Below, one piece after another: positions 4,669 through 64,000 of a stretch of 64,000 bases of DNA. How positions within the stretch are numbered: position 1 is the first letter of the stretch; each line of letters begins with the position of its first letter. A program made the translations under genes and the position numbers. This DNA comes from a virus (taxonomy: Duplodnaviria > Heunggongvirae > Uroviricota > Caudoviricetes), in IMG/VR virus record IMGVR_UViG_2579779105_000001; one strand, 5' to 3'. A model generated the notes under the pieces. It saw only the letters and a program-made list of their open reading frames with translations, searched no databases and was not told the DNA's origin.

Positions 4669-4677
4669 AACACAACA

Positions 4678-6530: not shown

Positions 6531-6543
6531 CCAAATAGAGAAC

Positions 6544-6675: not shown

Positions 6676-6684
6676 CAGTAATCT

Positions 6685-8182: not shown

Positions 8183-8200
8183 CATTAGATATTTAGTATT

Positions 8201-8215
8201 AATTTTCTAATACAA
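8201..8215 (+). promoter_or_regulatory. variant operator-like site (TTTTCTAATACA)
   Basis: Shares the TTTTCTAA core; lies upstream of the lpa-like gene. Confidence 0.3.
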
Positions 8216-8290
8216 TCATCTTTTTGCCAGTCTATACAGTTTTAACATTCTCATTATCATCCCCTCGGTCATTTCCTGCCCGGGGGATTA

Positions 8291-8683
8291 ATGGAACAAA
8301 TCAGCAGCGCAGAAATTGCGGATATCATGATTAGGGCTGACTGCTATCTGACAGTCACTGAAATTACCATTCTCGCCAAAGAAAAATACCCTCATCTCCA
8401 TGTTTCACGGGTAAGTGTAACTAACATCATTCGTCATTTTGTTCGTTCAAGCAGGGCAATCTGTGAGCTTGATGATCGCGTTTACCCACGAAAATACTGG
8501 TTGCATGGCCTGAACGGATATCAGTTCAAGGTGCGTGGGCGAACCCCTGAATACGGCAGTTTACTGGTTAAAAACTGTAGCAGGAAATCAGTCGAACAGG
8601 CGCGAAAAGAGCAACGAGAGCTGGTGGACATGGCGAATAAGCTGTGGAATGCCGCCGTTAAAAAGCGTGGTGTTGCTTTATGA
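8291..8683 (+). CDS. putative late promoter activator (Lpa-like), by position upstream of pacA
   Basis: 130-aa ORF overlapping the pacA start by 4 nt. P1 has lpa directly upstream of pacA; no sequence comparison was possible. Confidence 0.35.
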   Translation: MEQISSAEIADIMIRADCYLTVTEITILAKEKYPHLHVSRVSVTNIIRHFVRSSRAICELDDRVYPRKYWLHGLNGYQFKVRGRTPEYGSLLVKNCSRKSVEQARKEQRELVDMANKLWNAAVKKRGVAL

Positions 8684-10044
8684 GTCTGGTTAATTGGGAG
8701 GAGCACCGCGCCCGCTTTATAGCGTTGCGTGAAGAAAAAGGGATCACTGTAAAGGAATACTGTGAGGAGCATGGCCTTAGCTTCAATACAGCCAGAAAGC
8801 ATCTCAATATGAAAAAAAATGAGGTGCGGTCGCAGGTAAAGACAACAAAAAAAAGCACCAAATCACCTGAAAAAAAACGGGCAGGAAGAGCAACAAAAAA
8901 GCAGGAAGAGGGTGCAGGAAAAACAAAATTTACAGAAATTGACAATTCGCAGGGCGCAGGTTCTTTCCGAAGTATGCCGAGAAAGAAAACTTCGGATCAT
9001 GAAAATAATTCAAATAATAACAATGAGATAAAAGAATCCGTCAGGAGATCATTACGCGAAAAAATGGCGAAAATGATCCCCGAAGAAGATAAAAGCGCCC
9101 CAAAAATTGAGGGATCTTCTGCAATGATCCCTGACGGTGCTGTGCAGCGTGCCACATTGCCAACTACGAATGTAGCTCGCGATATGATGAAGAACGGCGC
9201 AGAAGAACACCTGCGGTTAGCAATTCAAATGGCGCAAGAGCGCGCACTTCAGTATCAAAGCATTGTTGATCAGGAGGCCGAACGTCTACAGGCGGAAATA
9301 GACACCCTGGGCGATAAAGAGCCAGAAGGAATGCACCCTGGGCAGCGCCTTCTCGGTCTAATCAGTGACGCGGCCTACTACATGAATGATTTTATCAGTA
9401 GGTTGGCAGCTATTTATCAGTCCGAACAAAAGCTGCGACAGGGGGATGAAAAGCTTCGTCAGAGCGCTCGCCAGCAAGCATTCAAAGAGGCTGAGGCCAG
9501 AGAAAAACTCGAATTAGCACGCCTACAGGCCGAACAGCGTGGCAAAGAGATTGAATATCGCATTGGCGCTGACGCACGCGCAGCCAGAGTTATCGCCGCC
9601 GCTATACGTATGCGTGAGCGCGAGGAACTGGATGATATCGGTGTTGCTGAATACATCGAGCGCCAGGGTGTCAGCGTCCCGGCTATCCTCGCGGCGCGCG
9701 CGGCGAAAGCTATCACTCTTCTCGAACCACCTGTTTCTGACGTCAATGATGTTGATGATGAACAGCTGGACAAAGAGGCAAGGGAGTTTGCAACGCTTCA
9801 GGCTAACCATCCGCAATGGCTGGCAGAGCGCCGGGCGGATGTGGCAACCATTGTTGAAGAATTGGGGTGCGGAGATTACGACCGCAATGGCGAGCGTAAA
9901 GCTGGAGAATTCGAGGCCAACGACGAAGAGCTGGATATTGACCCTTCGGCAACGGCTGAAATTTACGGTGATTATGATGCATCTGATGCAGGGTATGACG
10001 CCGGAGATGATGATATCGCGATAGAACCGCCGGAGGATGATTAA
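8680..10044 (+). CDS. pacA: terminase small subunit / pac-site recognition protein (PacA-like)
   Basis: 454-aa ORF with N-terminal HTH-like region, basic/acidic low-complexity linker and acidic C-terminus; lies directly upstream of the large terminase. Confidence 0.55.
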   Translation: MSLVNWEEHRARFIALREEKGITVKEYCEEHGLSFNTARKHLNMKKNEVRSQVKTTKKSTKSPEKKRAGRATKKQEEGAGKTKFTEIDNSQGAGSFRSMPRKKTSDHENNSNNNNEIKESVRRSLREKMAKMIPEEDKSAPKIEGSSAMIPDGAVQRATLPTTNVARDMMKNGAEEHLRLAIQMAQERALQYQSIVDQEAERLQAEIDTLGDKEPEGMHPGQRLLGLISDAAYYMNDFISRLAAIYQSEQKLRQGDEKLRQSARQQAFKEAEAREKLELARLQAEQRGKEIEYRIGADARAARVIAAAIRMREREELDDIGVAEYIERQGVSVPAILAARAAKAITLLEPPVSDVNDVDDEQLDKEAREFATLQANHPQWLAERRADVATIVEELGCGDYDRNGERKAGEFEANDEELDIDPSATAEIYGDYDASDAGYDAGDDDIAIEPPEDD

Positions 10045-11552
10045 TGGCTGGCAGGCGCAAGGTTAAATGCGTCACCAGAGATCCACGCTGGCGCGATATG
10101 GTAATCAAATACCGCTACAACTTTACCCAGGCTGTTGTCGATATTTTTGGGATGTTCCCCTCCCACCAGCAGCAGCAGATCATTCAGTCCGTACAGGAAA
10201 CGGGGAGTAGGACTACCGTCACGTCCGGACACGGAACGGGGAAGTCGTCCCTTACCGCGATGTTGCTGTTGATTTTTATGATCCTGTTCCCCGATGCCCG
10301 TGTCATCATTGTTGCTAACAAGATAGGCCAGGTAAAAACAGGCGTATTCAAATACGTTAAACAGTATTGGGCGAATGCAGTTAAGCGTCATGGGTGGTTG
10401 CAGACCTATTTTGTCCTCTCTGACACCATGTTTTATGAGCGCTCCCGTAAGGGGATTTGGGAAGTTCTCTGCAAAGGTTATCGACTCGGCAACGAAGAAG
10501 CGCTGGCGGGGGAACACGCGGCACATTTGCTTCTAATTCTGGATGAAGCATCTGGTATATCTGATAAGGCGATCGGCGTAATGACCGGTGCTCTTACTGA
10601 AGAAGATAACCGGATGTTGATGCTATCCCAGCCAACAAGGCCAAGTGGTTATTTCTACGATTCGCACCATTCTCGAGCAAAAACCCCAGACAACCCGAAA
10701 GGGATCTGGACAGCAATTGTTCTTAACTCGGAAGAATCACCGTTCGTCACACCACAATTCATCAAGGAGAAGCTTCTGGAATATGGCGGGCGCGATTCTA
10801 TTGAGTACATGGTCAAGGTGCTTGGTCAGTTCCCACGAGAAATTAACGGCTATTTGCTTGGTCGTGATGAATGCGATCGCGCTGCTCGCCGCAAGGTGTT
10901 GTTGGAGAAAAACTGGGGATGGGTGGCAACGGCTGACGTTGGTAATGGGCGAGATAAGTCGGTCCTCAACATCTGCAAGGTATCAGGTCACAGGGATAAG
11001 CGGCGCGTTGTTAACTTTAAGGTAATGGAGATGCCTGGCACTATGGACCCATTGGCCTTTGCTGACTTCATATATAACGAATGTACGCCGGAAAAATACC
11101 CGAATATAACAATCGCGGTTGATGCTGATGGTTTTGGTTCTGATACGTGTGCGCAGTTGGTGCGTCGTGGTGCGAACCCGGTACGTATTCGGTGGGGAAA
11201 ACCCATGTTTGCGAACAAAGACAGGGAGCGATTTGTTAATCAGCGAGCCTACGCAAATATTATGGCGCGTGATGCCATAAAGTCAGGGCGTATGCGGATA
11301 GACAGTGACTCTAAAACGGCAGAGCAAGCGTCAAAAATCCCCTTTTTACTGAATGAAGAAGGGAAAATGGCGATGATGCGCAAAGAGCACATGCGGCAAA
11401 AGCTAAACATCAAATCGCCTGACCGATGGGATACCTACTGCTTCACTATGCTGGTGGACTATGTGCCTGCTAATGAAGATATTGGTGCCGAAATGGCAAC
11501 TTTCCGAGATCAGGTTCTGGCGGATATCGAAATGCCGGATCTGGATATATAA
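10044..11552 (+). CDS. pacB: terminase large subunit (PacB-like)
   Basis: 502-aa ORF with Walker A-like GHGTGKSS and LILDEAS Walker B-like motifs; start overlaps the pacA stop. Confidence 0.6.
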   Translation: MAGRRKVKCVTRDPRWRDMVIKYRYNFTQAVVDIFGMFPSHQQQQIIQSVQETGSRTTVTSGHGTGKSSLTAMLLLIFMILFPDARVIIVANKIGQVKTGVFKYVKQYWANAVKRHGWLQTYFVLSDTMFYERSRKGIWEVLCKGYRLGNEEALAGEHAAHLLLILDEASGISDKAIGVMTGALTEEDNRMLMLSQPTRPSGYFYDSHHSRAKTPDNPKGIWTAIVLNSEESPFVTPQFIKEKLLEYGGRDSIEYMVKVLGQFPREINGYLLGRDECDRAARRKVLLEKNWGWVATADVGNGRDKSVLNICKVSGHRDKRRVVNFKVMEMPGTMDPLAFADFIYNECTPEKYPNITIAVDADGFGSDTCAQLVRRGANPVRIRWGKPMFANKDRERFVNQRAYANIMARDAIKSGRMRIDSDSKTAEQASKIPFLLNEEGKMAMMRKEHMRQKLNIKSPDRWDTYCFTMLVDYVPANEDIGAEMATFRDQVLADIEMPDLDI

Positions 11553-11555
11553 AAG

Positions 11556-11572
11556 CCCCGCAGTGCGGGGCC
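11556..11572 (-). terminator. hairpin GCCCCGCAGTGCGGGGC between convergent pacB and the 11581-12618 gene
   Basis: On the minus strand the hairpin is followed by TTTTAT. Confidence 0.4.
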
Positions 11573-11580
11573 GGTGGTGA

Positions 11581-12618
11581 TTACCAGAGCTTTGCGGCGC
11601 GCTGCGTTTGGGGGAATGTGTATCCGTAACGTTCTTCGATTGCTTTGCCGTATTTTTTACGCGCTTCATTCAGTTTGATGCCGGTCAGGTCGTCTCCAGA
11701 GGCCATCATTACGTCTAACAATTCCAGATCCATTTTATCCAGCCTTGCCATTGCTTCACGCGATGTACGAATCTTACGTTCAATGATATGGCGAATAGCC
11801 GGATCGGCATCCTCCAGCATCTTAGCTGATTTCTGCTTAAGGTTTTCGTTGCGGATATCGATGTTCCTTAAGATATACGACTTCGCAACGTAGCTTGGCT
11901 GATGTTTTTCCAGGTCACGAACACGATATAAGCTAAAGTCGCCGAGAAGGCTGCAAGGCACCGATTCGACGCCAGAATAAATTGTAATGCTACGGCGTTC
12001 ACCAACATTATTGACAACGGGGATCGTTGTCTTCGGTAGTTTTGCGAAAACGAATGCGCCATGTGCGCCAACTCTAAAGCGAGAAAGGGCATTGCTGCCT
12101 TCGATGTTTGTTGTCAGCACAACATCTGTATATGCCTCTTTACGCGCCCGGTAGACCTCGCCTTCAGGCTCAGCTTCAAAGAAGCGCTGTTCTTCTTCAA
12201 GAGCACCTACGATTTGAGAAAAAACCCTATTTTTCAGGCTTTTCTTTATGATTTTGTCGTATTTTTTGAGCAATTGTTCACGTGTAAATGTACGTGTTGT
12301 TGTAGCGCTTTGCACAACAACATGCGTGCTTTGATTGGTGTCCTCAATGATGAATGGGATCGGAGAATATACAGACTCAACAATGTTAGACGCTTTGCCG
12401 TCAGCATTACGGCACAAGTCAACAAAGGCTTTCCATTCTGCGAGGCACTTTTCAGCTTCTTCTAGTACATTTTGGTCGTGTGTTAGTGCAACGTGGCGGA
12501 ATTCCTCGCCAGCATAACTGGTATCATGGAAAACAGAGTTTGCGACCACCAGCTCTTTCCACCGTTCAGCGGTTTGCAGGAACCGTTTGTACTCTTTCTC
12601 GATCGACTTCTTACTCAT
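11581..12618 (-). CDS. hypothetical protein; candidate C1-like repressor by position and operator context
   Basis: 345-aa ORF convergent with pacB; an operator-like motif sits just upstream at 12637-12652. No sequence-level confirmation. Confidence 0.3.
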   Translation of the reverse strand: MSKKSIEKEYKRFLQTAERWKELVVANSVFHDTSYAGEEFRHVALTHDQNVLEEAEKCLAEWKAFVDLCRNADGKASNIVESVYSPIPFIIEDTNQSTHVVVQSATTTRTFTREQLLKKYDKIIKKSLKNRVFSQIVGALEEEQRFFEAEPEGEVYRARKEAYTDVVLTTNIEGSNALSRFRVGAHGAFVFAKLPKTTIPVVNNVGERRSITIYSGVESVPCSLLGDFSLYRVRDLEKHQPSYVAKSYILRNIDIRNENLKQKSAKMLEDADPAIRHIIERKIRTSREAMARLDKMDLELLDVMMASGDDLTGIKLNEARKKYGKAIEERYGYTFPQTQRAAKLW

Positions 12619-12636
12619 TATTCCTACTCGATTTAG

Positions 12637-12652
12637 TTTTCTAACATAAAAT
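12637..12652 (+). promoter_or_regulatory. operator-like site TTTTCTAACATAAAAT
   Basis: Motif instance 19 bp upstream of the start of the 11581-12618 gene. Confidence 0.45.
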
Positions 12653-12830
12653 CCCTATGACAAATCTATGTCGAATAACAGAGTGAGTAAAGGATCGAAC
12701 TATGATTTTTTTGTCATCAACTTTAGAAAACCAACCGTTGAAACCACACTTCGCAAATTAAAGACCATGAAGGCAACGTGTTACTGTCCATCATCAATCT
12801 ATGATGGATTACAAAAAAAATCGGCATTTT

Positions 12831-12864
12831 ATAACTTTAAATAATGGGGATTATTTAAAGTTAG
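12831..12864. other. lox-like recombination site (13-bp inverted arms, 8-bp spacer)
   Basis: ATAACTTTAAATA-ATGGGGAT-TATTTAAAGTTAG; arms match 12/13. Same architecture as loxP (ATAACTTCGTATA-ATGTATGC-TATACGAAGTTAT), sharing the outer ATAACTT and the spacer ATG start; 150 bp upstream of the Cre-like gene. Confidence 0.65.
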
Positions 12865-28351: not shown

Positions 28352-28857
28352 TGGATGACTCCTTTACGAAGCTGTTCGGCGATATCTTCGAGAACGCCAT
28401 CAGAGAATGAGCGGTCAAAATCGCCTTCCGGCGCATTAGCCATAAACTCAGTAGAGGTAAGAATCATCCGGGCAATATCCGCGGCGTTCTTCGCAGTATC
28501 ATCAATAAAACCAGCTACCCAGGCAGCCAGCATTCTGTTCGCCACAAAGTAAGCGCCCTCCTTGCGTGCTTCAGTCTTCACTTCATCCAGGAAAGTGTCG
28601 GTCGCAGGAGTAGTTTTTTGTGGTGATAGGGCGATACGAATTGTTTCAAGAGCTGGATCTATTTCCACTGTTGGCACCTTGATAAAACCAAGCTGCACGC
28701 CATTCATAATGAACGTGCGGCGATCCTCACATATCGCCTTCAGTCTCGCATTCTCCGCAGCCAGCGCCGCGCGCTCTTTCTCAAGTCGGGAAATTTCCGT
28801 TACATACTCAGCGTTACGCTCTGCCAGTTGTGCGGGCGTTAAACCTTCAGACTTCAT
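28348..28857 (-). CDS. hypothetical coiled-coil protein, paralog of 26612-27544
   Basis: LAAENARLKAI and ATDTFLDEVKTEARKEG ... RMILTSTE segments. Confidence 0.5.
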   Translation of the reverse strand: MKSEGLTPAQLAERNAEYVTEISRLEKERAALAAENARLKAICEDRRTFIMNGVQLGFIKVPTVEIDPALETIRIALSPQKTTPATDTFLDEVKTEARKEGAYFVANRMLAAWVAGFIDDTAKNAADIARMILTSTEFMANAPEGDFDRSFSDGVLEDIAEQLRKGVIQ

Positions 28858-29164
28858 ACACTCTCCTTTCGAAATAAACGTACTGATTAATCATGCCCAG
28901 GGGCATTTCGAGTTTTTCTGCGATCTCACGGCGGGGAACACCACACCGATGAAGCTGCCGTGCCAGTTCTATATCGCCCTGCCGGTATTTGGCTGACGGG
29001 TGAAAGTCTCCTTTCAGAATCATGCAGATCCGCAGTTGCCGCGCTTTGGTTCTGACAGCACTACCGGTACGCCCGATCAGCCTCCCAATACTCTCGACTG
29101 TCATAGTCCCGGCGCACTGGCGGAGTATCATGATTTCTGCCCTTCCCCATCCCCGCCAGCTCAC
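28847..29164 (-). CDS. hypothetical protein (possible HTH)
   Basis: 105-aa ORF. Confidence 0.35.
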   Translation of the reverse strand: MSWRGWGRAEIMILRQCAGTMTVESIGRLIGRTGSAVRTKARQLRICMILKGDFHPSAKYRQGDIELARQLHRCGVPRREIAEKLEMPLGMINQYVYFERRVYEV

Positions 29165-29772
29165 ACAGAACTCCTTCTAACCAAAAGAACGCCATCTTCA
29201 GAAACAACGTTGCAGGACTTCAGGTAATTCATTGCCTCTTTCGGTAATGGATTCTTTGGATCGGCGTTTGCCAGGGATTTCGATAACCTCATGATAAATT
29301 TGATCATTACCTTCTGGCGGAGCTTGTGCTCATGAGATAAAGACAGGTAATAGGAAATGGTATGGGCTAAACGCTCACGAAGCTGTTCTGTGCCGTGATA
29401 TACAGCAGCGATATCACGCAGTGCATTGACCAGTTCCCGGTAAATATGCGGAGCAACCTGGCATTCAATGTTGGTTGGTGACTCATAAATTACATTCAGC
29501 CCCAGCTTTTTAGCCAGCTCGTGCTCTGCACGAGCGCCAACTGATTCCTCCCACCCCTTGAGCAAATAGACCGCATTAGCCGAACGCACCATTGCAAGGC
29601 AAATATCCATGTATTCGCTCTGGCAGAGGCCAGCAGGTAACAGCGCCGGATTCATAACAATATGCCCTACCTCCATCAGCTCTTTTGCTTTCGAAAAAAA
29701 CGCTGTGCGGTTGTAGTCGGGATAACCAGTCATCGGACCCGCGATGTAAATTTTCATAATGCGTTTTGACAT
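29161..29772 (-). CDS. DUF4406-like (nucleoside 2-deoxyribosyltransferase-like fold) phage protein
   Basis: KIYIAGPMTG motif; start set at MSKRIM with a GGGGA RBS. Confidence 0.5.
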   Translation of the reverse strand: MSKRIMKIYIAGPMTGYPDYNRTAFFSKAKELMEVGHIVMNPALLPAGLCQSEYMDICLAMVRSANAVYLLKGWEESVGARAEHELAKKLGLNVIYESPTNIECQVAPHIYRELVNALRDIAAVYHGTEQLRERLAHTISYYLSLSHEHKLRQKVMIKFIMRLSKSLANADPKNPLPKEAMNYLKSCNVVSEDGVLLVRRSSV

Positions 29773-29967
29773 CAAAGTTTCCCCAGGAACGTTACGCAAA
29801 AGTTGATGAGAGCAAAGAGTTCAATGCCCAGCTCAAACAACGCCAGGACAGTGAAAAACAGGACATATAGCAACCCAATTTCTGTATCGGATTGCTGGTG
29901 GATTGCACTAATTGCGACAAGCATCATGACCTCCTGATATAGCGTCTGAAAAAAGTATCTTCATTTT

Positions 29968-29997
29968 GTGTTAGAAAATCAATTTTGATTTTCTAAC
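29968..29997. promoter_or_regulatory. palindromic double operator (TGTTAGAAAATCAA / TTGATTTTCTAACA)
   Basis: Perfect 14-bp inverted repeat of the recurring motif, in the divergent promoter region between the 29161-29772 gene and the ref-like gene. Confidence 0.55.
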
Positions 29998-30043
29998 ATG
30001 TTTGATCAACCATAGCGGCTATGTAGACAAACCGGGTATTTCT

Positions 30044-30619
30044 ATGAAGCAAAGCTATTGGGAGAAACAGACACAAAAAGCCCTGCAAAAACTGGCTGAT
30101 CCGAAATGGCGGGAGGAACAAAGGGCAAAGCGTCTTCAGCAAGCTCAACGCCAGCAGCAGCGTGCGCGAGAAAAAGCCGCATCGCCTGAATATCGGCAAA
30201 AGAAAATTGAAAAAGCGAAGCAATATGAACAGCGAAGAAAAGAGAAGGCCGCTTCTGCTCCTGTCAAAAAAACTCGCGCGTCACGCGGCCTGAAAGGCAG
30301 AACACTCACAGCAGATGAGCGCCGGATACAAACTGCCATCGGTGCTCTCCCCTGCATTGCCTGCCATATGCACGGACAGCATAGCCCTGTGGTATCCCTG
30401 CACCACATCTTCGGAAGAACAGCAGAGAACGCGCATAAATACGTCCTCCCTTTGTGTAAATGGCACCATCAACACGCAGCGCCAGCAGAGATCCGCGAGC
30501 AATACCCCTGGTTGGTTCCTGTTCATGCTGATGGAAAAATAGGCGGTAAAGCAGATTTCAGGCGGCACAATGCTGATGAAATGACGTTGTATCAGATGGC
30601 GATTGAATTGACGAATTAG
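30044..30619 (+). CDS. ref: Ref-like HNH endonuclease (recombination enhancement function)
   Basis: Highly basic N-terminal region plus C-terminal HNH-like Cys/His cluster (CIACHMHG ... HHIFG ... CKWHHQH). In P1, ref is C1-controlled, consistent with the upstream operator palindrome. Confidence 0.55.
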   Translation: MKQSYWEKQTQKALQKLADPKWREEQRAKRLQQAQRQQQRAREKAASPEYRQKKIEKAKQYEQRRKEKAASAPVKKTRASRGLKGRTLTADERRIQTAIGALPCIACHMHGQHSPVVSLHHIFGRTAENAHKYVLPLCKWHHQHAAPAEIREQYPWLVPVHADGKIGGKADFRRHNADEMTLYQMAIELTN

Positions 30620-30634
30620 TTTTCTAACATTTTA
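30618..30634 (+). promoter_or_regulatory. operator-like site AGTTTTCTAACATTTTA
   Basis: Motif instance overlapping the ref stop codon. Confidence 0.4.
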
Positions 30635-30950
30635 AGTTGAATTATAAATTTCTCCGATGTACATTCACTACCGATTGGCACACCGGTCAACTTTTTGAGA
30701 CAAACTGTATAGTTTTTCGTATTATTGCCGCCGCCATACCTATGGCGGTGCAATATAGGTGGCTGAAAAGCCCCCGTTGACTCACGGTGTTCCAGCCTTT
30801 ATTGCGCCGCCACCAGACCGTGGAACAGTCGATGGCGGCTCCGAAAGCAAGGAGTCACTACACTATGAACAGCTACTGTCTTTTCCCGTCACTCGTTGTC
30901 CGCCACTCACGCGATAATCTGCATTCTTTACTCGCGCTGGGGGTGTCAAA

Positions 30951-31118
30951 ATGACCGTTCGCTACCTCAACTTTCAAATCCAGAACATCACTGGCGGTTG
31001 CTATGACTGGTTTGTCACTCTCGGAAAAGAAGTGATCACCGGGAAGCTGGATGAAGTGAAAGCTAAAGCAATGGCCTACGCCTGCAAGCAAGCCCGGAAG
31101 AAATCCGCCAAAGCATAA
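30951..31118 (+). CDS. small ORF (55 aa), below the ORF-track cutoff
   Basis: ATG preceded by a GGGGGTG RBS-like element; translation MTVRYLNFQIQNITGGCYDWFVTLGKEVITGKLDEVKAKAMAYACKQARKKSAKA. Confidence 0.25.
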   Translation: MTVRYLNFQIQNITGGCYDWFVTLGKEVITGKLDEVKAKAMAYACKQARKKSAKA

Positions 31119-31505
31119 AATACTGACTTTTGCGCCCTGGCATTATCGTGGGGTATATTTCTACGGCACCTTAGAAAAACGGGTGCCGGGATTGGAACCT
31201 CACGCGGTAGCTCCTTAACTTAGTCAAAGGAGGCTGCCAATATCGCTACTATCCCCACCCCAACTCATTCTGAATTTATCTGGCGTTTCTATTCCTGCCA
31301 AAAACACCTGTATATCTGCGTCATGGCTGCAACCGAAGCAGAAGCTCGTTCATACCTTCCCCTGGCGGAACGGGGCGTAATTGGTGATAAACAGATACTG
31401 GGAAACAGTGGAACTACATGAGGCGGGAGTAATTCGTGACCTGATGGAGAATTCCGTTCCCCGCCGCTATCGTGCAGGGAACGGCATCTCCGTGGTTAAA
31501 GGTGT

Positions 31506-31898
31506 TTAAAGCTCACCTGCGCGCTGTTTTTCAAGCACAGATTTAACATTTGGCGCTTTCCCTTTAAAAGAATGGAAAGTGCCACATTTTTCTGTTTTAA
31601 CCTCGCGCAGAGCTTCGCCGTCGGCGTTCTGCCATTGATGGGATAATGTCATATCACCGCGAGAAGGAACATCCAGCGAGTACAGCGTGTAAGTTCCCCC
31701 CATCTCCGCATACTCCTGGAACACATAGCTCATTACGTCAGATTCAGTTTTTCGGTGTGCGTTATCAACCTTATTCCCATTCAGAAATATGGCATCTGGA
31801 TAGATTTTTATATCAAACCGACCGCACTTAACTTGTAAATCTCCGGCGCTCGCGATCAAAGGGAAAGACGCCAGTAAAGCAATAGCCAATCTTTTCAA
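31506..31898 (-). CDS. secreted protein with signal peptide
   Basis: N-terminal MKRLAIALLASFPLIASA signal-peptide-like sequence; 130 aa. Confidence 0.5.
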   Translation of the reverse strand: MKRLAIALLASFPLIASAGDLQVKCGRFDIKIYPDAIFLNGNKVDNAHRKTESDVMSYVFQEYAEMGGTYTLYSLDVPSRGDMTLSHQWQNADGEALREVKTEKCGTFHSFKGKAPNVKSVLEKQRAGEL

Positions 31899-31918
31899 TT
31901 CTGCCTCCGCTGCGTAAC

Positions 31919-32542
31919 TTATTGCCCGTATTTTTTACACCATTGCTCTGCCATTTGTTTGGCTAAAGGCCCGGCTACTGCACTGTATTCTGCTGTTTTA
32001 CTTTGCACACATGAAGCAGATGGTTTTTTATTTCGCTGCTCGGTTAGTTTGCGCTCATAAGCCATCATGCTATCGAACCCGGCAATATCACTTTGGCGAA
32101 GCATTCCCTTTTTAACCAAAAATTGCTGCCCCTCTGGCACCAACGCAAGCATAAAAAGAGGTTGCAATAACTCACCTAATCCTTGCTGGCGATACACTTC
32201 GAATTGCTGCCATCCCTGACTTAATCTGGAAAGAGTATCTTTGGTTGAATAACCTGTTTTTGTTATAGCTTTGTCCGTCAGATATGCTGTATATGCAAAA
32301 ACGCAAAAGTCAGTTTTACCAATAAACTGAGTTCCAACAGGCCGTAATGGAATGCCCTCCCTCTTGCAAAAGTCCATAATGGCCGCTTGTGAATGAACTC
32401 CACCAGCGTTATTCATAACCTGCTGCCCTGCCCTGAATTGTGCAGGTAACGCAGTTGCATTGGCAGTATTAGCAGATACGCATCCCAACATAGCCGCGAG
32501 CGCGGCCCCTAAAGCCCTTAACTTCACTACACCATCCTTCAT
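31919..32542 (-). CDS. secreted or periplasmic protein with signal peptide
   Basis: Signal-like N-terminus ...ALGAALAAMLGCVSANTANA; 207 aa. Confidence 0.5.
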   Translation of the reverse strand: MKDGVVKLRALGAALAAMLGCVSANTANATALPAQFRAGQQVMNNAGGVHSQAAIMDFCKREGIPLRPVGTQFIGKTDFCVFAYTAYLTDKAITKTGYSTKDTLSRLSQGWQQFEVYRQQGLGELLQPLFMLALVPEGQQFLVKKGMLRQSDIAGFDSMMAYERKLTEQRNKKPSASCVQSKTAEYSAVAGPLAKQMAEQWCKKYGQ

Positions 32543-58394: not shown

Positions 58395-58688
58395 TGAGGG
58401 CATTTTTTACATCATCAATCCATCAGCAATGAAGGCATTCTTTACATATTTCAATAATATCAATCAGTTAACACAGTGAATGATAATAAAAAAGCGCAAT
58501 AAGAATGCACGATACGCACGATATTGGTTGAGGGCGATTTTTACATAATCCTTACATATCAATATGTTATATAAAAACACAACTTGCTAATAACGAGATA
58601 CATGCAATTAAGATGTAAAAATTGCCCTCAATTGCCGATCGTTAAGGGCAAATTCTACACCTTGAGAGGGGTGTAAAAATTGCCCTTA
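58395..58688. repeat. incA-like iteron cluster downstream of repA (at least 5 iterons, both orientations)
   Basis: TGAGGGC(A/G)(T/A)TTTTTACA-type units at about 58395, 58529, 58612 (inverted), 58643 and 58669 (inverted). Confidence 0.6.
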
Positions 58689-59441
58689 AGACTGCTGATA
58701 GGTAAATTTTATCCTGGTAACTTTGCCGCCTTCCGTCACCTCTGAGAAGACTATTTTCATTTTTGTATTTTTTTCAATCTCTGCTACAGCCTTCGTTAAA
58801 AAACTTCTCTTAAATTCGGCATACCGCTGATAACTTTTTGGTAACCCATAACGCTCCCGCATCCATTCGACGCCAAGTATGGCAAAGCCGCTTCCATCAT
58901 CCTTCCTGTACTGGCATAAGGACTCATAAAGCCGCATAGAATAAGGATTTGTAAGGCGAGATACTTCGGTAAAATTCAGCCTTGTGAATCTCTTATCAAG
59001 CAGAGTAAAAAACGGCATGAGATATGGATTAAGATGAATAATGTAAGTCCCGCGCCGTGGTGAATAGGCATCCTTAATCATCCAGGGATAAGACTCATAA
59101 CTGTCTTCTGATTCGGTCGATTCATCAGGGTTATATATCGTAACTTTCTTCTCGCTAAGACCTGAAATGGCCTTACGAATATCCTTGCTGGCTTCAGCAG
59201 AGGGCAAATTATACATCTCTGCATATTCGTTGACCGTCAACTCACAGGCACCTGAACCAAGAACGCCATCCTTAGAAGCATAGCGAAGTCTTCCCACCAC
59301 AATAAACAACAGTCGCTTTTGGTCGCGAGTCAGGTGATAAGCAGCCTCCGTGATCTCATTGGCTTGTGCCAGACTACGACTAATAGGTGTCGCTGACTCA
59401 ATCAGGCTGACGGCTTTTGCTGTTAATTCCGCTCTGTTCAT
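58686..59441 (-). CDS. repA: iteron-binding replication initiator RepA
   Basis: Start set at MNRAEL; flanked by origin iterons upstream and control iterons downstream, as in P1/RepFIB-type replicons. Confidence 0.7.
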   Translation of the reverse strand: MNRAELTAKAVSLIESATPISRSLAQANEITEAAYHLTRDQKRLLFIVVGRLRYASKDGVLGSGACELTVNEYAEMYNLPSAEASKDIRKAISGLSEKKVTIYNPDESTESEDSYESYPWMIKDAYSPRRGTYIIHLNPYLMPFFTLLDKRFTRLNFTEVSRLTNPYSMRLYESLCQYRKDDGSGFAILGVEWMRERYGLPKSYQRYAEFKRSFLTKAVAEIEKNTKMKIVFSEVTEGGKVTRIKFTYQQS

Positions 59442-59465
59442 AACCCTGTGTGATCCTTCAAATGG

Positions 59466-59583
59466 TGAGGGCAATTTTTACACCACTTTGAGGGCAATTA
59501 CTACACCTTTTGAGGGCAAATCTTACACCTTCTGAGGGCAAATCTTACACCGATCGTATTTAATTGAGGGCAAATCTTACACC
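59466..59583 (+). repeat. origin iterons: five direct 19-bp repeats TGAGGGCAA(A/T)T(C/T)TTACACC
   Basis: Units at 59466, 59489, 59511, 59533 and 59565; an inverted copy at 59706-59724. Confidence 0.8.
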
Positions 59584-59829: not shown

Positions 59830-60651
59830 TTGAACATTCCAAAATTCCCATTGCCTTCCCGTCCTGAGACAGAAATTCAGTTCCACGCCCCTACCGTGAA
59901 GGATGCGCTGAAATATTCTGACCTGAACCCGGCAGAAGATGAGGCAACGACTACAGAGTACCTTAACTCTATGCAGGATGGTGAAATTAACGACAGTGCT
60001 AACTGGACAGTTCAGGATCGCAGAACTGCTCTTTGGTGGATATTTGTTAATTCGCGCCCCGATGCTGTAATGACCTACTCCTATGAGTGCAGTCACTGCG
60101 GTAATACGCATCATGCCGATATTAACCTGAGCGACCTGGCCCAAACAGTAGAAATACTCACTGTACCTCCTTACGTGAAAACCAACGTACCAGTAAATGG
60201 AGTACCAACTGACTGGATACTTAAACCATTAACCGGGAAAGGCGCGGAACTCCTTGAACGAATGCGAGCGTCACTTCCTGATATGAAAAGTCCCGAATAC
60301 AGTGCTGGCGTAGCACGGATGCGAATTGCTGAACTCGCTTTATGCACGGCGCTTAAAGACGATCCGGAGGACTTCACGCAGGCCGCTAACCGACGCTTTG
60401 ACATCATTGAAAGCATGGCGCTTGAAACCGAATTTACCCCGCTTGTGGCTCGCATACAGCTTATGCAAAAAGACCTACGCCACGGCCTGAAAATGTCTAT
60501 TGAGAGAGGCTCAAGCCGACTGATCCTGCCTCCGCAACATTGCAAAAACGCTAAGGAGGGTGCAGATGTGACAACCACACTGTACGTCCCCTTTCTCAAT
60601 AGAGAGTTTATCCCATCAATTAGATCTGAATGGATGGCTAACCATTATTAA
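59830..60651 (+). CDS. hypothetical protein
   Basis: 273-aa ORF downstream of the origin. Confidence 0.45.
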   Translation: MNIPKFPLPSRPETEIQFHAPTVKDALKYSDLNPAEDEATTTEYLNSMQDGEINDSANWTVQDRRTALWWIFVNSRPDAVMTYSYECSHCGNTHHADINLSDLAQTVEILTVPPYVKTNVPVNGVPTDWILKPLTGKGAELLERMRASLPDMKSPEYSAGVARMRIAELALCTALKDDPEDFTQAANRRFDIIESMALETEFTPLVARIQLMQKDLRHGLKMSIERGSSRLILPPQHCKNAKEGADVTTTLYVPFLNREFIPSIRSEWMANHY

Positions 60652-60705
60652 CAACCTGACTCTGTATGGATATCAGCCCGTTAGTGACGTTGAACAATTG
60701 CCACA

Positions 60706-63700
60706 ATGGCGAGCACTCCATATGTCAAAAGCCCTGGAAGAAAAATACAAAGCTCAAGCCGGGAAACGTTGATCGCCGCTGGCAAAAGAGAGGTTATTTT
60801 GAAAGAGAATAAAGACCGTATCGCAATAATTGACGCTATTCAGGGGGCGAGCACAAACGAACTTAACGCTCTTGCTGAGATCAAAGACGCCATTCTCTCT
60901 GGTAGAGGGTCTATAACTCAACTTGGTGAAAATCAAGGTAAAGTAAGTCAAAGACTATCCCGTAGACTCATAGCAAGCGAACCCTATGTCTCTGATGATG
61001 CCAAGAATACCCAAGCTAACCCATATATAAAACGCCTTCCGATGAAAAAAGGGAGGACGCAGATCAACAACGGAGAAGAACGTCTCATTGTTGCAACCAA
61101 CACATCAGAGCGCGTTCATTTTTCGTCATCACGCCAATCCGCCCAAAAGTTGAAAGGTTCTGTGCCAGTAGCCGCTAATTCTGCTCCTCTTGAACCACAA
61201 TCCCCCCAAAGCCAAAAAGGACCGCTTCGGGATAGTAACGGACGCTTTGTATCCCAGAAAAACAACGAAGATATAGCCAGAAAAAAAGAATGGCAGAAAG
61301 CACGTAAGGCTGACGCCAAACTACAAGAAGGCTTCCTCCGAAAATTAGGCTCCATTATAGGGGTAGATGGCAATCAGTCTTCCAGTGAAGAGTCTTTAAC
61401 AGATGCCGCAGGTGTTGGCGCTGGTGGTCCGTTGTGGATGGCTGCTCGCGGCATGTACGACATTACTAAAGAGATCACAGGTAAAGCAGTATCTCTTAAA
61501 GAATGGGTAGAAAAGGGGAAAGGTGAGGCTTCACCTTCGAAAGCGACATCTCCAGCTATCGCTTATCCGGCGGTGGTGAACACTCAAAAAGCAACCTCTG
61601 CAACAGCATTTAATAATGCTGTTGAGACAAAATCAGCACAAGCAGTAGAAGAGCAAACAAAAATTCTTCAGACCAATGACAACAAAATCATTGATGGTCT
61701 GGAAAATGTCTCCGACGAAGTAGTTAAGCTACGCAAATCAGTATCTTCTGGGAATAAGTTCGGCTTAAGTGATCTCTGGAAAAATCGAGCAAGCAGAAGA
61801 AATAAAATCAATATTGGCGATCAGGCTGGTAAAAATAAACGGAACAAACCGAAAAGGAAAGGTCGCAATCTGGGGAAAAAAGCCCTTTCTGTTGGTGAAA
61901 AAGCCGCTGCCGGAACCGCTGCTGCTGGAGCTGGTGCCGTAGCTGCAAAGACTGTTAAAACAAAGGTTAGTAAAGCCAAAGACATCAGCACCACAAGCGA
62001 CGCATCTAAGGGTATTGCTAAAGAAACAAAAAACACAACAAAGGCAGTTAAGTCAGCAGGTGTTGTTGCCGAAGAGGCCACAATTAAAACAGGTGAAACT
62101 GTTGCAAAGAAAAAAACCGAATCCTTAGCACTCAAAAGTGCTGCAAAAATAGGTGTTAAATCAGCTGCTTCTACAGCTGCAAGAGCTATCCCGATCATCG
62201 GCTCAGTGGCTATGGCGGGATATGACGCTATAGATGGTTACACTGATACAGATGCGCAAAAGGCAGCCTTTGGATTAAGTGACGATGATGCTGTATCCGA
62301 ACAGCAAAAAACGGCTTACGCAACAGCTAATGTGCTCGATATGGGGGGCTTGGTGTCGGGCGCAACTAACTTGATAGGGAAAGGAATTTCTGCGCTAGGA
62401 TTTGAAAGAGCAGGTGAAAAACTTCAGGATTTTGATACCGGAGATATTGCTCGTGGTGTTAACGGCGCGGTAGATATCACCAAATCTGTTTTTGGTAGCC
62501 TTAAGGATACATTTTTATCCACTGACGAAAACACGAAACAAGTAAAAAAAGCTGTTGAAGACGGCACCAAAAAAACTGTCGATGCGATTCATTCTCTAGG
62601 TGAACAATTACAAGGTGGGCGTAATGGCGAGGATGGAGTTGGTGAGCACGGGTATACTTCTCCAACTGAATTTAGTGCACCTGCCAACAACACCATTGCA
62701 GCGGATCTGAATATTGGCGGCAGCAACGCTAAAAACCGCAATTACCGAAATAATAATCTCGGCAATCTTGTTTTTGCCAACCAGGAAGGGGCGACACTGG
62801 AATCGCCAAATGCAAAAGGTGAACAACGTTTTGCGCGATTTAACACACCTGAAGAAGGGATCAGGGCACTGGCAAACCAGGTTTCCAGCTATTACAACGG
62901 CACCAGTGCCGCAGCGGGATATCAGAAGTTGCAGACGGTATCCAGCATCATTTCAAAATGGGCACCGCCAAATGAAAACAATACTAACCAATATATTGAT
63001 AACGTCAGTAAATATCTTGGTGTATCGCCTAATGAAAAAATAGATGTCAGCAAACCAGAGGTTATGACGCAATTAGTTCGTGCAATTGCGACGAAAGAAG
63101 GCGGAAATCCGGCAGTTAATAATGAGTTCATTAAGAACGCACTTGGAGCATTTAACACAAACACTGGTCGATGGGAGGGACAATTCTCTGACGAAACATT
63201 GGCGCGGATTAATAAAATTCAGAAAGAAAATGGTGGTCAGCTAATTGCCCGCGATTCGCAATATAGTGTTGGTCGCAAGGTAAAATATGCTAATGGAAAA
63301 TCTCCAGCTCAACCAGTTTTGAATGCCGTTCCGACAGCAACACAACAGCCAATTGAGGTTGCACAACATGCCCAGGCAGTCAAAAAGCCACAAAAAACAG
63401 GTAACCAACCACAACCGATTAATCCAGAGAACGCTGATGTTAATACCGGCTCTCCATCGAGTTTGCTTGAGCGGTTAATCGCAATAAATGAAAGCGGAAT
63501 CAGTGGTGCAAGTAATTTATTTGGCGGCGCGGCTACCAGCCTTGCTGGAACAAGTCTGGATCTGGTAAAGGATTTTGCGTTGGCTACTTCGTTTGGTTCT
63601 ATATCTTCGCTTTCCGAAAAAGCGAAAGGAATGGATCAGGCTCTTACTGAAAAGATATCCGGCTTAACCGGTAAATCTTTTGGATTTAAAAAAGCTTCTC

Positions 63701-64000
63701 AAGTGGCTGATATCGCAACAGCCATACAACAAAAACGCACTGTTAATCACGATACAGAAATCATTGATCTACTTCCGGGAGATCAAGTATCCCCTTTTAC
63801 TCCGAAAACCCCACAGCAGGAGCAGGCTCTAGCAATCAACCAGGCTATGGCGGGCTTTTCGTCTGCAGCGCCAGCACCGAAAACCCCACAGCAGGAGCAG
63901 GCTATAGCAATCAGCCAGGCTATGGAGGGCTTTTCGTCTGTAGCGCCAGCACCGAAAACCCCACAGCAGGAGCTGGCTCTAGCAATCAACCAGGCTATGG
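60706..64000 (+). CDS. large virion protein, tape-measure/Sit-like; 3' end lies outside the window
   Basis: Frame 1 is open from ATG 60706 to the window end (at least 1098 codons) and is absent from the ORF track because it has no stop. Gly/Ala-rich hydrophobic segments and C-terminal tandem repeats. Confidence 0.6.
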   Translation, partial: MASTPYVKSPGRKIQSSSRETLIAAGKREVILKENKDRIAIIDAIQGASTNELNALAEIKDAILSGRGSITQLGENQGKVSQRLSRRLIASEPYVSDDAKNTQANPYIKRLPMKKGRTQINNGEERLIVATNTSERVHFSSSRQSAQKLKGSVPVAANSAPLEPQSPQSQKGPLRDSNGRFVSQKNNEDIARKKEWQKARKADAKLQEGFLRKLGSIIGVDGNQSSSEESLTDAAGVGAGGPLWMAARGMYDITKEITGKAVSLKEWVEKGKGEASPSKATSPAIAYPAVVNTQKATSATAFNNAVETKSAQAVEEQTKILQTNDNKIIDGLENVSDEVVKLRKSVSSGNKFGLSDLWKNRASRRNKINIGDQAGKNKRNKPKRKGRNLGKKALSVGEKAAAGTAAAGAGAVAAKTVKTKVSKAKDISTTSDASKGIAKETKNTTKAVKSAGVVAEEATIKTGETVAKKKTESLALKSAAKIGVKSAASTAARAIPIIGSVAMAGYDAIDGYTDTDAQKAAFGLSDDDAVSEQQKTAYATANVLDMGGLVSGATNLIGKGISALGFERAGEKLQDFDTGDIARGVNGAVDITKSVFGSLKDTFLSTDENTKQVKKAVEDGTKKTVDAIHSLGEQLQGGRNGEDGVGEHGYTSPTEFSAPANNTIAADLNIGGSNAKNRNYRNNNLGNLVFANQEGATLESPNAKGEQRFARFNTPEEGIRALANQVSSYYNGTSAAAGYQKLQTVSSIISKWAPPNENNTNQYIDNVSKYLGVSPNEKIDVSKPEVMTQLVRAIATKEGGNPAVNNEFIKNALGAFNTNTGRWEGQFSDETLARINKIQKENGGQLIARDSQYSVGRKVKYANGKSPAQPVLNAVPTATQQPIEVAQHAQAVKKPQKTGNQPQPINPENADVNTGSPSSLLERLIAINESGISGASNLFGGAATSLAGTSLDLVKDFALATSFGSISSLSEKAKGMDQALTEKISGLTGKSFGFKKASQVADIATAIQQKRTVNHDTEIIDLLPGDQVSPFTPKTPQQEQALAINQAMAGFSSAAPAPKTPQQEQAIAISQAMEGFSSVAPAPKTPQQELALAINQAM
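63802..64000 (+). repeat. 75-bp tandem repeat (at least 2.6 copies) encoding a 25-aa unit PKTPQQEQALAINQAMAGFSSAAPA
   Basis: Copies begin at 63802, 63877 and 63952, with a few substitutions between copies. Confidence 0.85.

What the first reader, a model, noticed from the sequence alone, without database searches (positions are those of the whole stretch)
60706..64000. Unlisted large ORF (at least 1098 codons) with 75-bp tandem repeats at its 3' end
Frame 1 is open from 60706 to the window edge but is missing from the ORF track because no stop is reached. The product has Gly/Ala-rich hydrophobic stretches typical of tape-measure or injection proteins and ends in near-identical 25-aa repeats (PKTPQQEQALAINQAMAGFSSAAPA, at least 2.6 copies). 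Such repeats are prone to copy-number change and could tune protein length or interactions.
Basis: seen in the sequence. Interest (0 to 1): 0.4.

Follow-up and report, generated by a model that had tools for sequence, protein, structure and literature searches.

The report
Variable-length repeat in phage tail ruler
The open frame is the front four-fifths of the tail "tape-measure"/injection protein (Sit) of a D6-like plasmid prophage of E. coli. Its 75-base repeat is a real, fast-changing, in-frame repeat array that makes this protein differ by up to about 400 amino acids between almost identical plasmids.

Summary
Frame 1 is open for 1098 codons from 60706 to the window edge, and a 75-bp repeat (2.65 units, 94% match) fills 63802-64000.

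The ORF is the homologue of phage D6 gene 40 and P1 sit. This is the tail tape-measure protein with an embedded cell-wall-degrading domain. It sits in a conserved tail/baseplate gene order on a D6-like phage-plasmid.

The repeats are not at the 3' end of the gene. In full-length relatives a 54-nt partial unit and a conserved 227-codon C-terminal domain follow the array.

The array is a true variable-number repeat:
- 56 of 60 listed complete plasmids carry 0.72 to 16.72 units, in steps of exactly one unit.
- D6 and four of the 60 plasmids have none.
- Isolates from one serial-subculture series of a single strain carry 10.72, 8.72 and 4.72 units, with identical flanks.

The cell-wall-degrading domain is of the Enc34-endolysin (PHA02564) type, with the three residues that paper names (catalytic Glu, Trp, Tyr) conserved. 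It is not a Pfam SLT domain, so the "transglycosylase" label is doubtful.

Most likely, recombination or slippage between units changes the length of the ruler protein, and each 25-aa unit would add about one tail-tube ring. That step is inferred, not shown. It is a new member of a known kind and of moderate interest.

The parts
59830..60651 (+). pmgB homologue directly upstream of sit. In P1 it is proposed as a tape-measure chaperone.
   Evidence: 273-aa ORF. PHROG 1854 'PmgB-like', E=6e-135. Same position as D6_41 and P1 pmgB. The chaperone proposal is from PMC9024508.
60706..64000 (+). sit homologue: tail tape-measure / injection protein. The first 1098 codons are present and the gene is cut by the window edge.
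   Evidence: Open frame. PHROG 7182, E=0. D6 gene 40 at 88% nt identity. 99.8% identical to the NZ_CP142945 'transglycosylase' CDS of 1401 aa.
60802..62556 (+). N-terminal and central ruler region shared with P1 Sit (aa 33-617). Contains Gly/Ala-rich hydrophobic stretches.
   Evidence: blastp against P1 Sit: aa 33-617 align to P1 aa 3-523, 24% identity, E=4e-27. tblastn: aa 474-617, 42% identity to P1 sit. Hydrophobic windows.
62728..63150 (+). Cell-wall-degrading domain of the Enc34-endolysin / PHA02564 type (aa ~675-815). Predicted catalytic Glu798 is at 63097-63099, Trp752 at 62959-62961, Tyr763 at 62992-62994.
   Evidence: phmmer against PDB: 7q47_A 'Endolysin' E=1.5e-16; 9vvp_L Gp29 N-terminus E=7e-14. 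The Glu131/Trp79/Tyr95 of PMC8943055 align to E798/W752/Y763. No Pfam or NCBIfam hit.
63151..63801 (+). Linker between the enzyme domain and the repeat array (aa 816-1032). Includes a hydrophobic stretch around aa 951-969.
   Evidence: Translation. Hydropathy. Covered by the PHROG 7182 profile up to aa 1045.
63802..64000 (+). In-frame 75-bp (25-aa) variable-number tandem repeat. 2.65 units are visible (unit types F, B and the start of C). The array continues beyond the window.
   Evidence: TRF. Unit typing. Copy-number census of 0.72-16.72 units. 13.72 units in NZ_CP195333. IMG/VR contigs with 0.72-7.72 units.

Best explanation
The ORF encodes Sit, the tail tape-measure (ruler) and injection protein of a D6-like, P1-family phage-plasmid.

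Domain order: a ruler region shared with P1 Sit, then an Enc34-type cell-wall glycosidase domain, a linker, the 25-aa repeat array, and a conserved ~227-aa C-terminal domain that lies outside the window.

Shown:
- The 75-bp units are nearly identical in DNA.
- Units are gained and lost in whole numbers.
- Sit length therefore varies from 1260 aa (no array, D6) through about 1300 aa to 1676 aa among otherwise near-identical plasmids, and even within one strain during laboratory subculture.
- Because 75 is a multiple of 3, the frame is never broken. This is a length switch, not an on/off switch.

Inferred:
- The changes arise by homologous recombination or replication slippage between identical units.
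- Because the tail tube is built around the ruler protein, each added unit should lengthen the tail by about one tube/sheath ring. That is 25 aa x 0.15-0.19 nm, or about 4-5 nm.
- Tails would then range over roughly 60 nm between the shortest and longest alleles.
For: Identity:
- PHROG 7182, E=0.
- 88% nt identity to D6 gene 40, with conserved order tub - repB - pmgB - sit - pmgA - bplA.
- blastp to P1 Sit, E=4e-27.
- P1 Sit is a virion protein assigned as the tape measure (PMC9024508; PMC12810830).
- The window is colinear with D6 from 12850 to its end.

Variable repeat:
- Array length in 60 complete plasmids is n.72 units with n=0-16, except for 4 plasmids without an array. 56 of the 60 length differences are multiples of 3.
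- Identical arrays occur in pairs or trios of related records from the same studies: CP116989/CP116996, CP058654/CP058659, CP029365/CP043277 and CP057742/55/63.
- The Ec-050 serial-subculture isolates have unit strings IJBGFBDFBK (T0), IJBBGFBK (T5-MAC) and IJBK (T5-ESBL, T20-MAC). There are 0 mismatches in 2981 nt of flanks, and the plasmid sizes differ by exactly 300 and 450 bp. That series showed only 0-9 SNVs after 20 propagation steps (PMC11039899).
- The losses are explained by recombination between identical B units.

Ruler logic:
- In mycobacteriophage TM4, deleting 114 aa of the tape measure, including its peptidoglycan-hydrolase motif, shortened tails by about 20 nm (PMC1796659).
- P1 has 52 tube rings for a 1140-aa Sit, about 22 aa per ring.
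Against: - No tail-length measurement exists for any repeat allele, so the step from protein length to tail length is pure inference.
- The array lies C-terminal to the enzyme domain, near the end that is presumably held in the baseplate.
- The unit contains prolines (APAPKTP). It is predicted as a ~13-residue helix plus coil, not a continuous helix, and that model is unusable for anything else (mean pLDDT 29).
- No repeats are seen in 27 distant relatives or in D6 and P1, so the array is dispensable.
- Variation between units is 10 non-synonymous to 6 synonymous variants, which indicates only weak constraint.
- Both Ec-050 subculture lines ended with the same IJBK array. This could reflect pre-existing heterogeneity in the T0 culture rather than independent events.
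Confidence: 0.6

Rival explanations
1. Tolerated, functionally neutral spacer. The repeat array sits in a permissive linker of Sit. It expands and contracts by recombination simply because it is repetitive DNA, and it has no effect on tail length or infectivity.
For: - D6, four of the 60 listed plasmids and 65 of the 107 close homologues that could be scored lack the array entirely.
- Distant relatives have no repeats, and the length of their post-enzyme segment varies widely, 387-654 aa.
- Unit variants are mostly non-synonymous.
- Copy number drifts during plain subculture of a lysogen, where virion function is not under selection.
- The in-frame property comes automatically with a 75-bp unit.
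Against: - Experimental work on tape measures (lambda, T4 and TP901-1 from established knowledge; TM4) shows that inserted or deleted residues generally change tail length, even in non-helical parts.
- The unit peptide core (PKTPQQE..LA..QAM..SS.APA) is conserved across lineages whose flanks differ by up to 9%.
Confidence: 0.3
2. Post-ejection spacer. After ejection into the periplasm, the Pro/Ala-rich helix-linker units act as an extended tether. The tether would set the distance between the glycosidase domain and the C-terminal domain, and might change interaction with host or exclusion proteins. Copy number would then tune reach across the cell envelope rather than tail length.
For: - The array lies exactly between the enzyme domain and the conserved C-terminal domain.
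- The unit composition (AAPAPKTP) resembles Ala/Pro-rich inter-domain linkers. This is my own knowledge and was not tested.
- Tape measures are ejected and act in the envelope (general knowledge; P1 discussion).
Against: - No direct evidence.
- A range of 0-17 units is far wider than any plausible variation in envelope distance.
- The one test I could run gave no support. The sit allele type is not linked to the variable secreted-protein / sim region (window 31.5-32.5 kb): D6-type sit plasmids CP147095 and CP123702 carry that region, while the repeat-type Ec-050 plasmids and CP142945 are not listed among records matching it.
Confidence: 0.08
3. Assembly artefact. The differences in copy number reflect collapsed or expanded repeats in assemblies, not biology.
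For: - Three of six IMG/VR contigs break inside the array.
- Draft-genome proteins show only low unit numbers.
- Four of the 60 plasmids have out-of-frame lengths. One inspected case, CP058777, has a single extra G in a G run.
Against: - Complete, mostly long-read plasmids differ by exact multiples of 75 bp.
- Related records from the same studies give identical arrays.
- The end units are conserved while internal units differ in the Ec-050 series, and whole-plasmid sizes change by exactly 4 and 6 units.
Confidence: 0.02

Closest known systems
Escherichia phage D6 gene 40 product (putative tail injection transglycosylase, 'similar to P1 sit'), MF356679
   Same: The closest relative among the phage records, and the ortholog. 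88% nt identity over the first 2990 nt and the same neighbours: repB, pmgB upstream; pmgA, bplA downstream. Same Enc34-type enzyme domain and C-terminal domain.
   Different: D6 has no 25-aa repeat. Its linker between the anchors SLSEKAKGM and YDNGYK is 83 aa and of diverged sequence. D6 also starts 40 nt further upstream because of a 1-nt indel.
Bacteriophage P1 Sit (1140 aa), the tape-measure protein with an SLT domain
   Same: Same position in the tail operon after pmgB. Homologous N-terminal and central ~600 aa (E=4e-27), with weak similarity in the last ~80 aa (E=0.02). Same presumed role as ruler plus tail-borne cell-wall enzyme.
   Different: P1 carries a classical SLT lytic-transglycosylase domain (ATES... 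motif; HHpred 5OHU, cited). The window protein carries an Enc34/PHA02564 domain instead. P1 has no tandem repeat.
Tape-measure proteins with embedded muralytic motifs and experimentally length-setting sequence (mycobacteriophage TM4 Tmp, T5 Pb2, lambda gpH, TP901-1 TMP)
   Same: A long ruler protein with an internal peptidoglycan-hydrolase module. In-frame insertions or deletions change tail length (TM4: -114 aa gives about -20 nm). Tandem repeats are recognised contributors to tape-measure length variation (PMC13585406).
   Different: Those length changes were engineered or are fixed differences between phage species. Here 0-17 units segregate among >99% identical plasmids and change during subculture. 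This phage has a contractile tail. No tail-length data exist for it.
Hafnia phage Enc34 endolysin catalytic domain (PDB 7Q47; family PHA02564)
   Same: Sequence homology at E=1.5e-16 over ~130 aa. The catalytic Glu, Trp and Tyr are conserved.
   Different: Enc34 ORF39 is a free lysis-cassette endolysin with a C-terminal transmembrane domain. Here the domain is embedded in a virion tape measure, as in the N-terminus of some podophage internal virion proteins.
Bacterial protein-coding variable-number repeats (for example the Staphylococcus aureus spa X region and the group B Streptococcus alpha C protein)
   Same: Long, near-identical in-frame units whose number changes by recombination or slippage and alters protein length without inactivating the protein. 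This comparison is from my own knowledge.
   Different: Those are bacterial surface proteins under immune or adhesive selection. This is a virion-internal phage protein carried on a plasmid prophage.

Membership tests
P1 Sit-type tail tape-measure protein | Sequence homology to P1 Sit / D6 gp40 | tested here: met
   PHROG 7182, E=0. D6 gene 40 at 88% nt identity. blastp to P1 Sit: E=4e-27, aa 33-617.
P1 Sit-type tail tape-measure protein | Position in the tail/baseplate operon: after pmgB, before pmgA and bplA | tested here: met
   Upstream genes are in the window. Downstream genes are seen in plasmids 99.4-99.8% identical to the window and in D6 and P1. The downstream part lies outside the window.
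P1 Sit-type tail tape-measure protein | Largely alpha-helical, extended ruler region | tested here: inconclusive
   The AlphaFold2 model of the 1112-aa homologue P0076 shows many long helices, but mean pLDDT is 29 and pTM 0.19.
P1 Sit-type tail tape-measure protein | Protein length sets tail length; protein present in virions | not testable with these tools
   Only literature on P1 (virion proteomics; unresolved density in the baseplate) and on TM4.
Enc34 endolysin / PHA02564 lysozyme-like glycosidase domain | Sequence similarity to the solved catalytic domain | tested here: met
   7q47_A at E=1.5e-16, query aa 77-206 of the fragment (protein aa ~675-804).
Enc34 endolysin / PHA02564 lysozyme-like glycosidase domain | Catalytic Glu131 plus Trp79 and Tyr95 | tested here: met
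   They align to E798, W752 and Y763. These residues are invariant in 23 aligned homologues.
Enc34 endolysin / PHA02564 lysozyme-like glycosidase domain | Muralytic activity | not testable with these tools
   Activity was shown only for Enc34 ORF39 itself.
SLT / GH23 lytic transglycosylase (Pfam PF01464), implied by the 'transglycosylase' annotation | Match to the SLT profile | tested here: not met
   No Pfam family at E<=1. No NCBIfam family. The P1 SLT region does not align.
Protein-coding variable-number tandem repeat | Near-identical head-to-tail units with a length that is a multiple of 3 | tested here: met
   75 bp, 94% matches, no indels. 28 distinct unit variants that differ at 14 codons.
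Protein-coding variable-number tandem repeat | Copy number differs among close relatives and changes on short time scales | tested here: met
   0.72-16.72 units in plasmids with 91-100% identical flanks. 10.72, 8.72 and 4.72 units within the Ec-050 subculture series with identical flanks.
Phase-variable contingency locus (on/off switching by frameshift) | Unit length not divisible by 3, or located in a promoter, so that a change in copy number switches expression | tested here: not met
   The unit is 75 bp, so the frame is preserved. The rare out-of-frame records differ by 1-2 nt, and the one inspected (CP058777) has a single extra G in a G run, which looks like a sequencing error.

The most novel reading that the evidence does not exclude
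A widespread E. coli, Shigella and Salmonella phage-plasmid carries a hypermutable 'tail-length dial'. Each 25-aa unit of the Sit array corresponds to about one tail-tube/sheath ring. A single lysogenic lineage would then continually produce virions whose contractile tails differ by tens of nanometres. This would be a bet-hedging mechanism for reaching the membrane through surface layers of different thickness, or for escaping entry-blocking exclusion proteins.
Probability: 0.25. Interest if true: 0.65.

Novelty: new member of a known kind. Interest (0 to 1): 0.4.

Why it matters
Tape-measure proteins are the textbook example of a molecular ruler, but almost all the evidence comes from engineered deletions and duplications. 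Here nature supplies an allelic series of 0 to about 17 units of 25 aa in otherwise near-identical phage-plasmids. It includes isogenic laboratory derivatives (Ec-050 T0, T5 and T20).

Whether sequence beyond the enzyme domain counts in the ruler of a contractile tail, and whether tail length matters for infection, could therefore be tested simply by inducing existing strains and measuring their tails.

Practical consequences:
- The array breaks short-read assemblies of these plasmids.
- It changes plasmid size in 75-bp steps.
- It could serve as a fast typing marker for D6-like phage-plasmids, which are present in about 2% of complete E. coli genomes.
- The routine 'transglycosylase' annotation is probably wrong in enzymological detail, because the domain is the Enc34/PHA02564 glycosidase type.

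Tried and rejected
- **Pfam and NCBIfam scans.** No family was found. Only PHROGs and a sequence search of the PDB were informative.
- **Structure prediction.** The AlphaFold2 model of the 1112-aa homologue P0076, built on a 23-sequence alignment, had mean pLDDT 29. It is unusable, so no fold search was run. Only the periodic one-helix-per-unit pattern was noted, at low confidence.
- **DNA hairpins as a cause of slippage.** Imperfect 10-nt inverted repeats span each unit junction. However, the single-strand DNA folding energy of the array is no better than shuffles (z=-0.84), so this idea was rejected.
- **Co-variation of sit allele with the sim region.** A Salmonella paper lists the sim region and sit as the two divergent spots. 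The window's version of that region occurs with both sit types and is not listed for several repeat-type plasmids, so the link was rejected.
- **Independent repeat arrays in distant Sit relatives.** None were found in the 27 best cluster representatives (50% identity clusters).
- **Finding the exact source record, to read the window's own copy number.** The best match is 99.8% identical (NZ_CP142945) and has a different first unit (A instead of F). The window's true copy number therefore remains unknown, at 2.65 or more.
- **The D6 genome paper (Gilcrease & Casjens 2018).** It is not held in the library.
- **Literature on repeats in phage-plasmid tape measures.** No paper in the library holds all three of 'phage-plasmid', 'tandem repeat' and 'tape measure'.
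- **A DNA-level role such as iterons or a centromere.** The units do not resemble the 22-bp repB iteron consensus by eye. The idea was not pursued further.
Full report
**Observation**

Translating window 60706-64000 on the + strand gives 1098 sense codons from an ATG, with no stop. The mechanical ORF list omits it only because ORFs that run off the source are not listed. Tandem Repeats Finder finds a 75-bp period at 63802-64000: 2.7 copies, 94% matches, no indels, score 363. Across the whole window, the only other array scoring 80 or more is the 22-bp x 3.9 iteron set at 59466-59551, next to the replication gene.

**What the gene is**

- The protein matches PHROG 7182, 'tail injection transglycosylase', with E=0 over aa 32-1045.
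- Its DNA is 88% identical over 2990 nt to gene 40 of Escherichia phage D6, annotated 'similar to P1 gene sit'.
- The window is colinear with D6 from about 12850 to its end.
- The local order matches D6: capsid, sheath, gp21, pmgG, bplB, pmgC, tub, repB on the opposite strand with its iterons, pmgB, then sit. In full-length relatives pmgA and bplA follow.
- blastp against P1 Sit (1140 aa) aligns aa 33-617 with P1 aa 3-523 at 24% identity, E=4e-27. The last ~80 residues align weakly (E=0.02).

P1 Sit is a virion protein and is now assigned as the tape-measure protein. Its size fits that role, it is largely helical, and it carries a cell-wall-degrading domain (PMC9024508). The 2026 cryo-EM study of P1 calls it the TMP, counts 52 tube and 53 sheath rings, and sees only unresolved density for it inside the baseplate (PMC12810830).

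The element itself is a D6-like phage-plasmid:
- 111 PLSDB plasmids of about 90 kb from E. coli, Shigella and Salmonella match, and 109 of them are typed non-mobilizable.
- 97 of 5426 complete E. coli genomes carry this sit type, always on a plasmid.

**The enzyme domain**

Pfam and NCBIfam give nothing. A sequence search of the PDB matches aa ~675-815 to 7Q47, 'Endolysin', at E=1.5e-16, and to the N-terminus of a 1295-aa Gp29 (9VVP) at E=7e-14. 7Q47 matches the catalytic domain of the Hafnia phage Enc34 endolysin described in PMC8943055 (family PHA02564). That paper names Glu131 as the catalytic residue, with Trp79 and Tyr95 also important, and argues for a GH73-like N-acetylglucosaminidase mechanism. 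In the alignment these correspond to E798, W752 and Y763 of the window protein. All three are invariant in 23 homologues.

P1 Sit instead carries a classical SLT domain that does not align with this protein. So the enzyme module has been swapped between P1-type and D6-type Sit, and the RefSeq product name 'transglycosylase' is not supported for this protein.

**The repeat array is internal and hypervariable**

In the closest complete plasmid (NZ_CP142945, 99.8% identical) the gene encodes 1401 aa. It has 5 full units, then a 54-nt partial unit, then 681 nt encoding a conserved C-terminal domain. NZ_CP116989 has 16.72 units (1676 aa), NZ_OY754373 has 1.72, and D6 has none (1260 aa).

To take a census, I searched PLSDB with a query made only of the 1700 nt before and the 681 nt after the array. 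The record span minus the query length gives the array length. Results for the 60 listed plasmids:

| Units | none | 0.72 | 1.72 | 2.72 | 3.72 | 4.72 | 5.72 | 6.72 | 7.72 | 8.72 | 9.72 | 10.72 | 11.72 | 16.72 |
|---|---|---|---|---|---|---|---|---|---|---|---|---|---|---|
| Plasmids | 4 | 2 | 3 | 7 | 6 | 9 | 8 | 2 | 6 | 4 | 4 | 2 | 1 | 2 |

- 56 of the 60 length differences are multiples of 3.
- The four exceptions differ by 1-2 nt. Three of them lack an intact annotated CDS, and the one I inspected (CP058777) has one extra G in a G run, which points to a sequencing error.
- A further complete plasmid has 13.72 units.
- IMG/VR viral contigs show 0.72-7.72 units, and three of six contigs break inside the array.
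- Among the 120 closest protein clusters, the linker comes in two allele classes: the D6 type without repeats and the repeat type.
- None of the 27 best representatives at 50% identity or less (869-1455 aa, apart from two fragments) has any internal repeat. Their segment after the enzyme motif is 387-654 aa, against 719-994 aa in alleles with 5.72-16.72 units.

The array is therefore a recent, lineage-specific addition.

**It is not an assembly artefact, and it changes fast**

Related records from the same studies give identical arrays: CP116989/CP116996, CP058654/CP058659, CP029365/CP043277 and CP057742/55/63.

The most telling case is strain Ec-050. It was sequenced at steps T0, T5 and T20 of a serial-subculture experiment on two media. 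The record names are given. The study is cited in PMC11039899 as showing 0-9 SNVs after 20 propagation steps. I infer the link between the record names and the passages from those names.

| Isolate | Unit string | Plasmid size (bp) |
|---|---|---|
| T0 | IJBGFBDFBK | 90446 |
| T5-MAC | IJBBGFBK | 90296 |
| T5-ESBL | IJBK | 89996 |
| T20-MAC | IJBK | 89996 |
| T20-ESBL | 4.72 units (string not typed) | 89996 |

The 2981 nt flanking the array are identical in the four Ec-050 records I fetched (all but T20-ESBL). The end units are kept and the internal units are lost or duplicated. The losses can be written as crossovers between identical B units.

That both lines end at IJBK may mean the T0 culture was already mixed. 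Either way, the array is unstable on a laboratory time scale. D6 encodes homologues of P1 Ref (a RecA-dependent endonuclease that enhances recombination) and an RdgC-family protein. The window aligns with that part of D6 at about 91% identity. Whether these proteins contribute is untested. Hairpin-promoted slippage is not supported.

**How it most likely works**

Shown: the gene is the Sit/tape-measure homologue, and the array changes Sit length in 25-aa steps without ever breaking the frame.

Inferred: tail tubes polymerise around the tape measure, and tail length follows its length. In TM4, removing 114 aa, including the peptidoglycan-hydrolase motif, shortened tails by about 20 nm, so non-helical parts also count. 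P1 has about 22 aa of Sit per tube ring (1140 aa for 52 rings). At 0.15-0.19 nm per residue, a 25-aa unit is 3.8-4.7 nm. A ring rise of about 4 nm is my own knowledge from other contractile tails. On these figures one unit is about one ring. The range of 0 to 16.72 units would span about 16 rings, or 60 nm or more, on a tail of about 200-230 nm.

Against this:
- The array lies near the baseplate-proximal end.
- It contains prolines.
- It is predicted, at very low confidence, as a 13-residue helix plus coil in each unit.
- It is absent from functional phage D6.
- It shows weak sequence constraint: 10 non-synonymous to 6 synonymous unit variants.

A neutral, merely tolerated spacer is therefore a serious rival, to which I give about 0.3. 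A role as a periplasmic tether after ejection is possible but unsupported. My one test of a link to the variable secreted-protein / sim region was negative.

**Comparison and novelty**

Tape measures with embedded muralytic motifs (TM4, T5, P1) and tandem repeats as a source of tape-measure length variation are both established. The gene is already annotated in RefSeq, and the Salmonella D6-like study noted in passing that sit is a divergent spot. What I could not find described in the library is the following:
- the divergence is a 75-bp variable-number repeat;
- its range is 0-17 units among near-identical plasmids;
- it changes during subculture;
- the enzyme domain is of the Enc34 type.

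I class this as a new member of a known kind. Interest is moderate, mainly because existing strains form a ready-made allelic series for testing the ruler model in a contractile-tailed phage.

**Limits**

The window ends inside the array, and its exact source record is not in the collections searched. The best match is 99.8% identical and has a different first unit. This isolate's own unit number (2.65 or more) and its stop codon were therefore not observed directly.

Noticed in passing
window 60666-60782: A 1-nt indel changes the start of sit. The window has GATCGCCGCTGG at 60771, and D6 and NZ_OY754373 have GATCGCGCTGG. The window type starts at ATG 60706 (MASTPYVKSPG...). The D6 type starts at an ATG 40 nt upstream, in another frame (MDISPLATL...). 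The two merge at about residue 25, so the first ~25-38 residues differ completely between alleles. The PHROG profile match begins only at residue 32.
   Followed up: partly
window 58686-59551: The plasmid replication gene (RepB family, minus strand, 58686-59474) and its 22-bp iterons (59466-59551, 3.9 copies) sit in the middle of the tail operon, between tub and pmgB, as in D6. P1 has pmgB directly after tub.
   Followed up: partly
window 62728-63150: RefSeq names this protein 'transglycosylase', but the enzyme domain is the Enc34/PHA02564 lysozyme-like type, proposed to be an N-acetylglucosaminidase. P1 Sit has an unrelated SLT module in the equivalent place, so the enzyme module has been swapped within an otherwise homologous tape measure.
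   Followed up: yes
window 31506-32542 (minus strand): Two ORFs with signal-peptide-like N-termini (130 aa and 207 aa; PHROGs 13864 and 12786, function unknown) occupy the place where D6 has simB, pmgF, an anti-repressor and icd. The region is mosaic among D6-like plasmids: 74 PLSDB records match, 46 of them over most of its length. It is not linked to the sit repeat allele.
   Followed up: partly
L018, L021, L022 (IMG/VR contigs) and CP058777, MN101855, OR257475, CP043746: Short-read viral contigs end inside the sit array. Four 'complete' plasmids have array lengths that are out of frame by 1-2 nt. CP058777, the one inspected, has one extra G in a G run, and three of the four lack an intact sit CDS in their annotation. 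The array is a practical trap for assembly and annotation.
   Followed up: partly
window ~28739-31194 (aligned to D6 L016 18839-21298): This stretch aligns at about 91% identity with the part of D6 that encodes a homologue of P1 ref (a RecA-dependent endonuclease that enhances recombination). An RdgC-family gene lies elsewhere in the colinear region. These genes could raise recombination at the sit array. I did not check that the genes are intact in the window.
   Followed up: no
window 1-12850: This part of the window did not align to the two D6 segments I fetched (D6 29597-91159). It presumably corresponds to D6 1-29596, but this was not examined.
   Followed up: no
P0029, P0078 against P0002 (protein homologues): Some Sit homologues combine an N-terminal ~1000 aa that is 89-96% identical to the repeat-type representative P0002 (itself 98% identical to the window protein) with a C-terminal domain only ~73% identical to it. 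This indicates recombination within sit, with a breakpoint near the array position.
   Followed up: no
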